DNA from: a virus
Lineage: Duplodnaviria > Heunggongvirae > Uroviricota > Caudoviricetes
Virus record (IMG/VR): IMGVR_UViG_2737471855_000006
DNA: 5,246 bases
Strand: one strand, 5' to 3'
Positions 3,001-5,246 of the stretch are shown here, in pieces. Each line of letters starts with the position of its first letter. The stretch's first letter is position 1. The position numbers are program-made.

Positions 3001-5246
3001 GGTGCTTTCGGTGGTGGCGCATCCGCTTCCACGGGAACGGCCATTGAGGCTGCGGCGGCGAACTTTCATTTCGCGACCGGAGGATTTACGGGCACGGGCG
3101 GCAAATATGAGCCTGCGGGGATAGTTCACCGCGGGGAGTTTGTCTTCACGAAGGAGGCAACCAGCCGGATAGGTGTGGGGAATCTTTACCGTCTGATGCG
3201 CGGCTATGCGGAAGGTGGTTATGTGGGTGGTGCCGGAAGTCCGGCGCAGATGCGGCGGGCGGAAGGTATTAATTTTAATCAGAACAATCACGTGGTGATT
3301 CAGAACGACGGTATAAACGGACAGGCGGGGCCGCAGCTGATGAAGGCGGTGTATGACATGGCCCGCAAGGGGGCGCAGGATGAGCTCCGGCTGCAGTTGC
3401 GTGATGGCGGTATGTTATCAGGGAGCGGGCGATGAAAACCTTTCGCTGGAAAGTGAAGCCGGATATGGAGGTGAACTCGCAGCCATCGGTGCGTGAAGTG
3501 CGTTTTGGTGACGGGTACTCACAGCGTATGGCGGCAGGGCTGAATGCTGACCTGAAAACATACCGGGTGATGCTTTCCGTGAGCCGGGAGGAGGCCCGGC
3601 ATCTGGAAGCGTTCCTGGCAGAGCACGGGGGCTGGAAGGCATTTTTGTGGAAGCCACCCTATGCATACCGGCAGATAAAGGTGACCTGTGCCGGGTGGTC
3701 TGCGCGGGTCGGGATGTTGCGCGTTGAGTTCAGCGCGGAGTTTAAGCAGGTGGTGAACTGATGCAGGATATTCACGAAGCAAGCCTGAACGAGTCGGTTA
3801 AGTCAGAGCAGTCACCGCGGGTGGTGCTCTGGGAAATCGACCTGACGGTGCAGGGCGGTGAGCGGTATTTTTTCTGCAATGAGCTGAATGAAAAAGGGGA
3901 GCCGGTGACCTGGCAGGGGCGGAAGTATGAGGCGTACCCGATTGAGGGCAGCGGCTTTGAGATGAACGGAAAGGGCTGCAGTGCCCGCCCGTCGCTGACG
4001 GTGTCCAATCTTTTCGGGCTGGTCACCGGGATGGCGGAGGATTTGCAGAGCCTGGTGGGTGCCACGGTGGTCCGCCGCCGGGTGTATGCGCGTTTTCTGG
4101 ATGCGGTGAATTTTGTGGCGGGGAATCCTGAGGCAGACCCGGAGCAGGAGCTGACGGACCGGTGGGTGGTGGAGCAGATGTCAGCGCTGACGGCCATGAC
4201 GGCCTCGTTTGTGCTGGCGACACCGACGGAGACGGACGGTGCGCTGTTTCCCGGTCGCATCATGCTGGCGAACACCTGTATGTGGGATTACCGGGGCGAT
4301 GAATGCGGGTATAACGGTCCGGCAGTGGCGGATGAGTTCGACAACCCCACCACGGATATCCGGAAGGACAGATGCAGTAAATGCATGCGCGGGTGTGAGA
4401 TGCGCGGCATGGTGGCTAATTTCGGCGGTTTCCTTTCCATTAATAAACTTTCGCAGTAAATCCCGTTTTATGACACAGACTGAATCAGCGATTCTGGCGC
4501 ATGCCCGGCGGTGTGCGCCAGCGGAGTCGTGCGGCTTCGTGATAAGCACCCCGGAGGGCGAACGGTACCAGCCCTGCGTGAATATCTCCGCAGAGCCGGA
4601 GGCGTATTTTCGTATTGCGCCGGAAGACTGGCTGCAGGCACAGATGCAGGGGGAGATTGTGGCGCTGGTCCACAGTCATCCCGGTGGTCTGCCCTGGCTG
4701 AGCGAGGCGGACCGGCGGCTGCAGATAAAGAGTGCCCTGCCCTGGTGGCTGGTCTGCCGGGGTGAAATTCACCGGTTCCGCTGTGTGCCGCACCTGACCG
4801 GACGGCGCTTTGAACACGGTGTGACGGACTGTTACACCCTGTTCCGGGATGCATACCATCTGGCGGGGATTGAGATGCCGGATTTTCATCGCGAGGATGA
4901 CTGGTGGCGCAACGGCCAGAACCTGTACCTGGACAATCTGGCGGAAAACGGCTTTTGCCGGGTGTCTCCGTCCTGTGCACAGGCAGGCGATATTCTGCTG
5001 TGCTGCTTTGGTTCATCGGTGCCGAATCATGCCGCCATTTACTGTGGCAACGGTGAACTGCTTCACCATATACCTGAACAACTGAGTAAACGGGAGAGGT
5101 ATTCTGAAAAATGGCAACGACGAACGCATTCTGTCTGGCGTCACCGCCACTGGTCCGCATCTGCCTTCACGGGGATTTACAACGATTTGGTCGCCGCATC
5201 AGTCTGTATGTGAACACGGCAGCGGAGGCCATCCGTGCCCTGTCGC

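What the first reader, a model, noticed from the sequence alone, without database searches (positions are those of the whole stretch)
4470..5213. K encodes two predicted hydrolase domains in one tail-tip assembly protein: JAB/MPN metalloprotease plus NlpC/P60 cysteine peptidase
A complete JAMM zinc-binding signature HxHx7Sx2D is read directly from the sequence (H68-S-H70…S78-E-A-D81, nt 4671-4712), with upstream acidic residues (PEGERY). The C-terminal half carries the NlpC/P60-type Cys/His residues (C121 in DCYTLF, H187 in NHAAIY, HH199-200). The presence of both domains in lambda-K-like proteins is known from computational domain analyses, but to my knowledge their catalytic role and substrate in tail tip assembly remain unclear. 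Here the motifs appear fully intact, which suggests the activities are retained and selected.
Basis: partly seen in the sequence, partly recalled or inferred. Interest (0 to 1): 0.5.

Follow-up and report, generated by a model that had tools for sequence, protein, structure and literature searches.

The report
Lambda-type tail-tip protein K, two peptidase domains
This is an ordinary, intact copy of phage lambda's tail-tip assembly gene K, whose zinc "deubiquitinase-like" domain plus cysteine-peptidase domain have been known for twenty years. The zinc domain's job, cutting a ubiquitin-like cap off the neighbouring protein I, has already been predicted and recently reported.

Summary
Window 4470-5213 (+) is a 247-aa ORF that is 88% identical to true lambda gpK. 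It lies in a lambdoid G-T-H-M-L-K-I tail cluster.

**Domain support.**
- Pfam gives Prok-JAB at 2.7e-16 and NLPC_P60 at 3.1e-13.
- An AlphaFold model has pLDDT 97.5.
- Foldseek matches the N-terminal half to PfJAMM1, AMSH and Rpn11, and the C-terminal half to MepS.

**Conservation.** In 105 homologues at 33-58% identity, the best-conserved columns are mainly the two active sites. dN/dS is about 0.13.

**One correction.** The catalytic Glu is E19 (AESCG), not the PEGERY turn.

**Prior knowledge.**
- The architecture was published in 2003-2006.
- Iyer et al. (2006) predicted that the JAB domain clips the ubiquitin-like domain off gpI.
- A 2025 meeting report says this has been shown experimentally.

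**My comparative data agree.** Distant phages carry JAB-only genes, JAB-I fusions and JAB-I-J polyproteins with no NlpC/P60 domain. JAB is therefore tied to gpI, and NlpC/P60 is an accessory module.

**Still open.** Only the substrate of the NlpC/P60 domain is unresolved.

**Verdict.** Real, intact and under selection, but already known.

The parts
4470..5213 (+). Gene K (tail tip assembly protein K), 247 codons plus TGA. It starts 10 nt after the L stop codon with no obvious Shine-Dalgarno sequence.
   Evidence: ORF and translation. 88% identical to the 247-aa K of re-sequenced lambda. PHROG phrog_30 'minor tail protein' at E 1.9e-157. The N-terminal helix, aa 3-15, is part of the confidently folded domain.
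4476..4784 (+). JAB/MPN+ (JAMM) metallopeptidase domain, aa 3-105
   Evidence: Pfam PF14464 at E 2.7e-16. A profile built from homologues hits PDB 2KKS, 2KCQ and PfJAMM1 5LDA/5LD9 at E 1e-12 to 1e-14. Foldseek: 5ld9_A at E 1.7e-5 with TMt 0.67, plus AMSH, CSN5 and Rpn11.
4524..4526 (+). E19, the general-base Glu of the JAMM motif, in AESCG
   Evidence: Conserved in 103 of 105 homologues. Aligned to the E-x-CG Glu of solved JAMM proteins.
4671..4712 (+). Zinc-site motif H68-S-H70-x7-S78-x2-D81
   Evidence: Regex match. H68 and D81 are invariant, and S69, H70 and S78 are at least 90% conserved.
4800..5141 (+). NlpC/P60 (MEROPS C40) papain-like cysteine peptidase domain, aa 111-224
   Evidence: Pfam PF00877 at E 3.1e-13. 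Profile hits to Spr/MepS, CwlO and LytE. Foldseek hits to MepS 7v6s and 8xud with TMt 0.6-0.7.
4830..4832 (+). C121, the catalytic nucleophile (D120-C121 in DCYTLF)
   Evidence: At least 90% conserved (nearly invariant) in the 105-sequence alignment A2, and D120 is invariant there; C in 106 of 110 representatives. Aligned to the catalytic Cys of Spr in 'IDCSGFV'.
5028..5030 (+). H187, the catalytic His (NHAAIY)
   Evidence: At least 90% conserved in A2; H in 107 of 110 representatives. Aligned to the first of the two His in Spr's 'GRHVGIY...FVHA'; that these are the catalytic His119 and His131 of Spr is my recollection, not in the output.
5064..5069 (+). H199, third member of the Cys-His-His triad and 12 residues after H187 as in Spr, followed by the conserved H200
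   Evidence: Both at least 90% conserved in A2; H199 in 107 and H200 in 101 of 110 representatives. H199 aligns to the second His of the Spr segment.
5111..5246 (+). 5' end of gene I (tail tip protein I, ubiquitin-like N-terminal domain). It is in another frame, overlaps the last 103 nt of K, and runs off the window.
   Evidence: ATG at 5111, preceded by GGGAGAGG at 5092-5099. The 45-aa product hits Pfam Lambda_tail_I at E 1.2e-5, 26.1 bits against a cutoff of 23.8. The full-length 212-aa I is present in the 97.7%-identical phage 1720a-02.
3761..4459 (+). Gene L (tail tip hub protein), immediately upstream. It gives the syntenic context H-M-L-K-I.
   Evidence: Pfam Phage_tail_L at E 2.7e-92. 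M, at 3432-3761, hits Phage_min_tail at E 1.1e-37.

Best explanation
The region is gene K of a lambdoid prophage. K is a cytoplasmic maturation enzyme of the tail tip that is not part of the finished virion, and it carries two intact hydrolase domains.

**N-terminal JAB/MPN+ domain (E19, H68, H70, S78, D81).** It works like the archaeal and eukaryotic JAMM enzymes that cut after the C-terminal glycine of a ubiquitin-like protein. Its substrate is the product of the next, overlapping gene I.
- gpI consists of a ubiquitin-like beta-grasp domain, a conserved glycine (...IVP-x-x-x-G), a hydrophobic Gly-rich linker and a C-terminal plug domain.
- K removes the ubiquitin-like cap once gpI is in the J-I-L tip complex.
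- This leaves the C-terminal part of gpI as the plug in the tip lumen and allows the tip to go on to bind tape measure and tube.

**C-terminal NlpC/P60 domain (C121, H187, H199).** It is a second enzyme with a MepS-like fold that has been kept catalytically competent. It is an accessory module: related phages do without it. Its substrate is not established.

**What is shown here:** the folds, the motifs, the conservation, the selection, the synteny, and the JAB-gpI gene fusions.

**What comes from the literature:** cleavage of gpI by gpK, and the absence of gpK from virions.

**What is inferred:** the cleavage position near the conserved Gly, and the checkpoint role.
For: **Fold and motifs**
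- Pfam and solved-structure profile searches support both domains.
- The AlphaFold2 model has pLDDT 97.5 and pTM 0.91.
- Foldseek matches PfJAMM1, including its complex with the ubiquitin-like SAMP2 (5lda), and also AMSH, CSN5, Rpn11 and MepS.

**Selection**
- The active-site residues are among the few columns conserved at 90% or more across 105 homologues of 33-58% identity.
- dN/dS is about 0.13 against 79 close relatives, and all catalytic residues are invariant there.

**Identity**
- 88% identical to the true lambda K.
- The H-M-L-K-I order is present.

**The JAB-gpI link, from my own comparative data**
- In 51 distant viral loci, the JAB-containing gene either is followed at once by an ORF I take to be gpI-like or is fused to gpI-like sequence, wherever the locus extends far enough downstream.
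- hhalign of the lambdoid I alignment against the alignment of the 30 distinct downstream ORFs of at least 180 aa gives probability 99.1% and E 1.6e-18.
- 12 loci have a JAB-only gene of 108-117 aa next to I.
- 5 loci have a 330-aa JAB-I fusion protein.
- 2 loci have a JAB-I-J polyprotein.
- No NlpC/P60 domain was found within 3 kb in any of those 19 loci. One JAB-only locus (L125) and one fusion locus (L122) were checked with Pfam and keep the TMP-M-L-[JAB]-I-J order.
- In 92 gpI-like sequences, the Pro and Gly of ...VP-x-x-x-G at the end of the ubiquitin-like domain are invariant.

**Literature**
- Iyer et al. (2006) predicted that the JAB domain of K releases the ubiquitin-like domain of I (PMC1779556).
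- A 2025 plenary by A. [quoted passage not shown]
- In lambda virions, gpI is seen only from residue 101 (PMC11101478) or from residues 134-135.
- gpK is not found in virions by mass spectrometry.
- In F-pyocin, the gpI homologue loses its N-terminal region during maturation. The gpK homologue is required for tip assembly but is absent from particles.
Against:
- The experimental demonstration for lambda is available to me only as a meeting summary, not as a paper with data.
- I could not inspect model coordinates. So I cannot say whether the gpI tail reaches the zinc site rather than Cys121, nor whether the two active sites face each other.
- The JAB-only architectures come from metagenomic contigs whose viability is unknown.
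- The NlpC/P60 domain is strongly conserved wherever it is present, so calling it an 'accessory' does not explain what it does.
Confidence: 0.8

Rival explanations
1. The NlpC/P60 half is the phage's cell-wall peptidase for entry. In this reading a few copies of K, or a fragment of it, ride inside the tail tip, are ejected into the periplasm, and cut the gamma-D-Glu-mDAP bond of peptidoglycan. This is what has been proposed for the NlpC/P60-only protein g14 of the Rhodobacter gene transfer agent.
For: - The closest solved folds are true peptidoglycan endopeptidases: MepS/Spr, CwlO and LytE.
- K has the same Cys-His-His triad with the same spacing.
- RcGTA g14 degrades peptidoglycan, is needed for tail formation, and may sit as one copy in the tail lumen (PMC7296036 and PMC3423380).
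- The lambda enzyme that opens the cell wall on entry is still unidentified (PMC11101478).
Against: - gpK was not detected in lambda virions by mass spectrometry, although gpZ and gpC, neither of which was resolved in the structure, were detected.
- gpK has not been resolved in any lambda tail structure.
- The F-pyocin homologue PA0639 is absent from mature particles.
- K has no export signal. Its N-terminus is the folded JAB domain.
- K scores far below the cutoff of the GTA-type family TIGR02219, 18.7 against 81.9 bits.
- Lambda-type tips exist without any NlpC/P60 domain.
Confidence: 0.25
2. The NlpC/P60 half is a second cytoplasmic protein-processing enzyme of tail maturation. It might trim gpI at a second site, or carry out the still unassigned cleavage of the tape measure gpH to gpH*. 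On this view it is not a peptidoglycan enzyme.
For: - The triad is under strong purifying selection in a protein that acts in the cytoplasm and is not packaged.
- Iyer et al. suggested that the papain-like domain may also process the ubiquitin-like protein.
- How gpH is cleaved is unknown (PMC12617516).
- A pTM of 0.91 suggests the two domains are held in a fixed arrangement.
Against: - There is no direct evidence for any protein substrate.
- The nearest structural relatives all act on peptidoglycan stem peptides.
- According to the literature quoted, gpH cleavage happens after tail assembly, when K is apparently no longer present.
- JAB-only lineages manage without the domain.
Confidence: 0.3
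3. One or both domains are catalytically inert scaffolds, and K acts only as a chaperone or assembly factor for the tip.
For: - MPN domains without activity are common in eukaryotic complexes (established knowledge).
- K is a classical 'assembly protein' that is not found in the product.
Against: - All five JAMM residues and the full Cys-His-His triad are intact here.
- They are among the best-conserved positions in the family.
- Inactive MPN- domains characteristically lose these residues.
- The 2025 report describes actual cleavage.
Confidence: 0.05

Closest known systems
Bacteriophage lambda gpK (tail tip assembly protein K; UniProt P03729 per my recollection; GenBank XSB40720 in the re-sequenced lambda PV340536)
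   Same: 88% identical over 245 aligned residues, both 247 aa long. It has the same two domains, the same position between L and I, and the same overlap with I.
   Different: Only ordinary allelic differences, 29 substitutions over the 245 aligned residues, none at a catalytic residue. The textbook lambda record (J02459 / NC_001416) shows a 199-aa K. That record lacks one G, which removes the first 48 residues, including E19. The window shows the true full-length form.
JAMM/MPN+ proteases specific for ubiquitin-like proteins: Pyrococcus furiosus JAMM1 (PDB 5LD9, 5LDA with SAMP2), Haloferax HvJAMM1 desampylase, Rpn11, CSN5, AMSH
   Same: It has the same fold and the complete E...HSH-x7-S-x2-D zinc site. 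Its predicted substrate is a beta-grasp domain that ends in a conserved glycine.
   Different: K is predicted to cut a normal peptide bond inside a single polypeptide (gpI), not an isopeptide conjugate. It is fused to a second peptidase domain. It scores below the NCBIfam desampylase cutoff, 30.8 against 130 bits. So it works like these enzymes but is not an equivalog.
E. coli MepS/Spr and other NlpC/P60 (C40) peptidoglycan DL-endopeptidases (PDB 2K1G, 7V6S, 8XUD)
   Same: It has the same papain-like fold, the canonical Cys then His then His order, and the same 12-residue His-His spacing.
   Different: K has no signal peptide or lipobox. It is made in the cytoplasm as the C-terminal half of a two-domain protein, and it is reported absent from virions. 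Activity on the cell wall has not been shown.
RcGTA g14 (Rcc01697), the NlpC/P60-only tail protein of the Rhodobacter capsulatus gene transfer agent (NCBIfam TIGR02219)
   Same: It is an NlpC/P60 protein encoded in a tail gene cluster and is required for tail formation. That its gene sits between hub and central-fibre genes, as K does, is my recollection.
   Different: g14 has no JAB domain, is about 150 aa long, degrades peptidoglycan, and may be packaged. K matches its family model only weakly, at E 0.0018 and below the cutoff.
F-type pyocin PA0639 and PA0640 (the gpK and gpI counterparts)
   Same: The K homologue is needed for tip assembly and is absent from particles. The I homologue loses its N-terminal region during maturation.
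   Different: This is a tailocin rather than a phage. The protease responsible was not identified in that preprint.

Membership tests
JAMM/MPN+ metallopeptidases (Pfam Prok-JAB PF14464) | Score above the Pfam gathering threshold | tested here: met
   59.9 bits against a cutoff of 25, E 2.7e-16, covering aa 3-105 and profile positions 3-113 of 114.
JAMM/MPN+ metallopeptidases (Pfam Prok-JAB PF14464) | Complete motif E-x(n)-H-S/T-H-x7-S-x2-D, as defined in PMC300881 | tested here: met
   E19, H68-S69-H70, S78 and D81 are present. They align to the motif in 2KKS, 2KCQ and 5LDA and are 90-100% conserved.
JAMM/MPN+ metallopeptidases (Pfam Prok-JAB PF14464) | MPN fold | tested here: met
   The AlphaFold2 model has pLDDT 97.5. 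Foldseek hits PfJAMM1 at E 1.7e-5 with TMt 0.67 and rmsd 2.8, plus AMSH, CSN5 and Rpn11.
JAMM/MPN+ metallopeptidases (Pfam Prok-JAB PF14464) | Zinc-dependent cleavage after the C-terminal Gly of a ubiquitin-like domain | not testable with these tools
   Supported only indirectly, by the gene fusions and by a meeting report for lambda gpK.
NlpC/P60 cysteine peptidases (MEROPS C40, Pfam PF00877) | Score above the Pfam gathering threshold | tested here: met
   50.1 bits against a cutoff of 23, E 3.1e-13, covering aa 111-224 and profile positions 1-105 of 105.
NlpC/P60 cysteine peptidases (MEROPS C40, Pfam PF00877) | Cys-His-polar catalytic triad in the canonical, non-permuted order | tested here: met
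   C121, H187 and H199 align to the 'IDCSGFV' Cys and the two His of 'GRHVGIY...FVHA' in Spr. All three are at least 90% conserved in the 105-sequence alignment and present in 106-107 of 110 representatives.
NlpC/P60 cysteine peptidases (MEROPS C40, Pfam PF00877) | Papain-like alpha+beta fold | tested here: met
   Foldseek hits MepS 7v6s_A at E 9.6e-5 with TMt 0.69 and rmsd 2.7, plus 8xud and 7cfl.
Secreted or virion-borne peptidoglycan endopeptidases (MepS/Spr type, RcGTA g14 type) | Access to peptidoglycan through an export signal, a lipobox, or presence in the virion | tested here: not met
   The N-terminus is the folded JAB helix, with no hydrophobic leader (sequence). The literature finds no gpK in lambda virions. 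The score against TIGR02219 is 18.7 bits against a cutoff of 81.9.
Secreted or virion-borne peptidoglycan endopeptidases (MepS/Spr type, RcGTA g14 type) | Hydrolysis of the gamma-D-Glu-mDAP bond | not testable with these tools
   This needs a sacculus or muropeptide assay.
Lambda gpK family (tail tip assembly protein K) | Close sequence identity to lambda K over the full length | tested here: met
   216 of 245 aligned residues identical to the K of the re-sequenced lambda PV340536. phrog_30 at E 1.9e-157.
Lambda gpK family (tail tip assembly protein K) | Position between L and an overlapping I gene that encodes a ubiquitin-like N-terminus | tested here: met
   L lies at 3761-4459 (Phage_tail_L). 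I starts at 5111 inside K and hits Pfam Lambda_tail_I.
NCBIfam desampylase (NF041370, equivalog) | Score above the curated cutoff | tested here: not met
   30.8 bits against a cutoff of 130. K is related in mechanism but is not a member.

The most novel reading that the evidence does not exclude
The NlpC/P60 half of K may not be a cell-wall enzyme at all. It could be a second, independent protein-processing peptidase of tail maturation. One candidate role is the unidentified activity that converts the tape measure gpH to gpH*. Another is trimming the hydrophobic linker of gpI. K would then be a two-protease maturation machine. A second reading that is also not excluded is the opposite one: that K is the long-sought lambda entry peptidoglycan hydrolase, present at sub-stoichiometric levels.
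Probability: 0.25. Interest if true: 0.5.

Novelty: already known. Interest (0 to 1): 0.15.

Why it matters
As it stands, the finding adds nothing to what domain databases and the literature already say about lambda gpK.

Its use is mostly practical:
- It confirms that the window carries a functional, full-length K.
- It fixes which Glu belongs to the JAMM site.
- It shows that the widely used lambda reference record carries a truncated K because of a missing base.

The one open biological question it touches is what the conserved cysteine-peptidase half does. That matters for two unresolved points in lambda biology: which enzyme opens the cell wall at entry, and what cleaves the tape measure. 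The ubiquitin-like cap plus JAMM protease pair is also of evolutionary interest as a prokaryotic and viral counterpart of deubiquitination. That point was made in 2006.

Tried and rejected
1. The search for related loci with the 105-sequence alignment failed because no stretch was conserved enough. With a 13-sequence alignment it returned only relatives at 85% identity or above. Those were used for dN/dS but were no help for diversity.
2. A scan with the distant homologue P0254 found nothing in viral contigs. P0172 gave the useful diverse set.
3. Pfam Lambda_tail_I did not detect the distant downstream proteins. Profile-profile comparison did.
4. I looked for a primary paper on gpK cleaving gpI. 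Only a meeting summary is held. The Casjens and Hendrix lambda review could not be opened.
5. The antisense and alternative-frame ORFs across K (4471-5160 minus strand, 4488-4889 minus strand, 4511-4762 plus strand, 4849-5082 plus strand) have no Pfam match. They are rejected as genes because the K frame shows the codon-level selection.
6. No promoter-like site lies in 4300-5246. One terminator-like hairpin at 4585-4602 is no more than chance predicts.
7. I considered co-folding a natural K-I fusion (P0039). I did not run it, because the tool returns no coordinates. It could not show which active site receives the gpI tail.
8. The sequence search and the fold search of the PDB found no solved structure that matches both domains of K.
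Full report
**1. What is in the window**

The 5246-base window is the left-arm tail cluster of a lambdoid prophage. The ORFs and Pfam matches give the following:
- G at 16-402 and T at 429-842.
- The tape measure H at 823-3435.
- M at 3432-3761 (Phage_min_tail, E 1e-37).
- L at 3761-4459 (Phage_tail_L, E 3e-92).
- The ORF in question at 4470-5213.

The whole window is 98% identical to E. 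coli chromosomes, where NCBI's pipeline names this gene 'C40 family peptidase'. The K ORF alone is 97.7% identical to phage 1720a-02 and 97.4% to several Stx-converting phages. The protein is 88% identical to lambda gpK.

**2. Check of the observation**

- HSHPGGLPWLSEAD is aa 68-81, nt 4671-4712.
- C121 lies in DCYTLF.
- H187 lies in NHAAIY.
- HH is aa 199-200.

The HxHx7Sx2D pattern occurs once in the six-frame translation. About 0.03 occurrences are expected by chance.

Pfam supports both domains above their curated thresholds. Prok-JAB covers aa 3-105 at 2.7e-16, and NLPC_P60 covers aa 111-224 at 3.1e-13.

One detail is wrong. 'PEGERY' is a variable turn between two strands. The Glu of the JAMM motif is E19 in AESCG. 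It is conserved in 103 of 105 homologues and aligns to the Glu of solved JAMM proteins. The motif definition EXnHS/THX7SXXD comes from PMC300881.

**3. Fold**

I built a 105-sequence alignment of cluster representatives that are 33-58% identical to K.
- AlphaFold2 on this alignment gives mean pLDDT 97.5 and pTM 0.91 with no disordered segment.
- Foldseek against the PDB matches the N-terminal half to Pyrococcus JAMM1, free and bound to the ubiquitin-like SAMP2, and to AMSH, CSN5 and Rpn11.
- It matches the C-terminal half to E. coli MepS and a clostridial autolysin.
- No solved chain covers both halves.
- No close relative of K is in the PDB by sequence.
- A profile search aligns C121, H187 and H199 to the Cys and the two His of the 'IDCSGFV' and 'GRHVGIY...FVHA' segments of Spr.

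**4. Selection**

Across the 105 distant homologues:
- The invariant columns are G22, N38, H68, D81 and D120.
- The columns conserved at 90% or more include E19, C21, S69, H70, S78, C121, H187, H199 and H200.

So the active sites are what the family conserves.

Against 79 close relatives, dN/dS is 0.16 for the JAB half and 0.12 for the NlpC/P60 half. Every catalytic residue is invariant in that set. Exceptions among representatives are rare, and most of them are frameshifted chimeras.

**5. What it does**

The architecture has been in the literature for two decades.
- Lambda K appears among JAMM-motif proteins of unknown function in 2003 (PMC300881).
- Iyer, Burroughs and Aravind (2006) described K as JAB plus NlpC/P60 next to gene I. 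They noted that the N-terminus of gpI is a ubiquitin-like beta-grasp ending in a conserved glycine.
- They predicted that the JAB domain releases that domain (PMC1779556).
- A 2025 plenary by A. [quoted passage not shown] It reports that this happens only after gpI has joined the tip complex.

Structural work fits this picture.
- gpI is seen in lambda tails only from residue 101 or from residues 134-135.
- gpK is absent from virions by mass spectrometry.
- In F-pyocin, the gpI homologue loses its N-terminal region during maturation. The gpK homologue is needed for the tip but is not in the particle.

**6. My own comparative test of the JAB-gpI link**

A scan of viral contigs with a distant homologue returned 51 loci. 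They fall into four groups:
- 32 loci have a two-domain K. Where a downstream ORF could be called, it usually overlaps the K stop by 11 nt.
- 12 loci have a JAB-only gene of 108-117 aa that is usually followed at once, with an ATGA overlap, by the next ORF.
- 5 loci have a 330-aa JAB-I fusion.
- 2 loci have a single polyprotein of more than 1075 aa that reads JAB, ubiquitin-like domain, plug domain, then J.

An HMM built from the K NlpC/P60 domain finds no such domain within 3 kb in the 19 JAB-without-NlpC loci. One JAB-only locus (L125) and one fusion locus (L122), checked with Pfam, keep the order tape measure-M-L-[JAB]-I-J.

The alignment of the 30 distinct downstream ORFs of at least 180 aa matches the lambdoid gpI alignment by profile-profile comparison, with probability 99.1% and E 1.6e-18. 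In 92 gpI-like sequences, the Pro and Gly of ...VP-x-x-x-G are invariant.

Gene fusion and strict adjacency tie the JAB domain to gpI. The NlpC/P60 domain is a separable accessory.

**7. The unresolved part**

The substrate of the NlpC/P60 domain is not known. Two readings remain:
- It may be an entry peptidoglycan peptidase, like RcGTA g14. This is attractive because the lambda cell-wall enzyme is unidentified.
- It may be a second cytoplasmic processing enzyme. For example, it could carry out the unexplained cleavage of gpH to gpH*.

There is no direct evidence for the second reading.

**8. Both strands and surroundings**
- Antisense and alternative-frame ORFs across K have no family match.
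- No promoter-like site is present, and the single terminator-like hairpin is at chance level.
- Gene I starts at ATG 5111 inside K, behind GGGAGAGG, and runs off the window. Its 45-residue fragment already passes the Pfam Lambda_tail_I threshold.

**9. Verdict**

It is not new. This is a new sequence copy of a well-known protein with a published domain analysis. The JAB half has a published substrate prediction and a reported experimental confirmation. I score interest low. The residual interest is in the NlpC/P60 half.

Noticed in passing
L001 (NC_001416) between record nt 14266 and 14267; corresponds to window about 4604-4605: The lambda reference sequences J02459 and NC_001416 lack one G (GGAGGC-TATTT). 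Re-sequenced lambda PV340536 has it. Other lambda, DE3, imm21 and imm434 records span 102 nt against the 101-nt reference query, consistent with one extra base. The reference therefore annotates a 199-aa K that starts at Met49 and lacks the N-terminal part of the JAB domain, including the catalytic Glu. The true K is 247 aa. The missing base follows a GC-rich hairpin (CTCCGG-TGAG-CCGGAG), so a gel compression in the 1982 sequence is a plausible cause. That cause is my inference. Published analyses based on the 199-aa protein (for example 'residues 52-182 out of 199' in PMC7291167) miss the JAB domain.
   Followed up: yes
window 5111-5246 (+); L002 2175-2747; L003 5741-6280: The start of gene I is annotated inconsistently. 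Several GenBank records (PV340536, KF030445) start I at the GTG that overlaps the K stop codon, giving 190 or 179 aa. That start would delete the first strand of the ubiquitin-like fold. In the window, the ATG at 5111 has a good ribosome-binding site. The Pfam Lambda_tail_I match begins at residue 16 of the protein that starts there, which supports the longer form. K and I then overlap by 103 nt.
   Followed up: partly
window 346-352 and 378-384 (+): The G/T programmed -1 frameshift site appears to differ from lambda's. Lambda's heptamer GGGAAAG is present at 346-352 but is out of phase with the G frame. An in-phase A AAA AAG lies at 378-384, 16 nt before the G stop. The -1 frame is open from there to the end of T at 842.
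   Followed up: partly
L115-L133 (viral metagenome contigs), e.g. L125 3001-3941, L122 2989-3981, L129 718-3984: Lambda-type tail tips exist with a JAB-only gene, a JAB-gpI fusion, or a JAB-gpI-gpJ polyprotein, and with no NlpC/P60 domain nearby. L127 looks like a recent deletion of the NlpC/P60 half in a lineage that otherwise has two domains. The polyproteins imply that the JAB domain processes itself off in cis.
   Followed up: partly
protein P0133 (245 aa, 50% identical to K): This is a rare full-length homologue with both E19 changed to K and C121 changed to G, while the zinc ligands and both His are kept. It may be a natural variant that is inactive in both domains, or a decaying prophage copy.
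   Followed up: no
window 4585-4602 (+): A GC-rich hairpin followed by a T-rich run lies inside the K coding sequence. It matches the terminator consensus, but such matches occur at the chance rate here (1 found, 0.9 expected). It coincides with the site of the missing base in the lambda reference.
   Followed up: partly
proteins P0028, P0039, P0112, P0118 (database entries): Public assemblies contain apparent K-I fusion proteins of 348-428 aa. They arise from frame changes inside the 103-nt K/I overlap. They are probably assembly or sequencing artefacts rather than real fusions, unlike the clean JAB-I fusions in the marine contigs.
   Followed up: no
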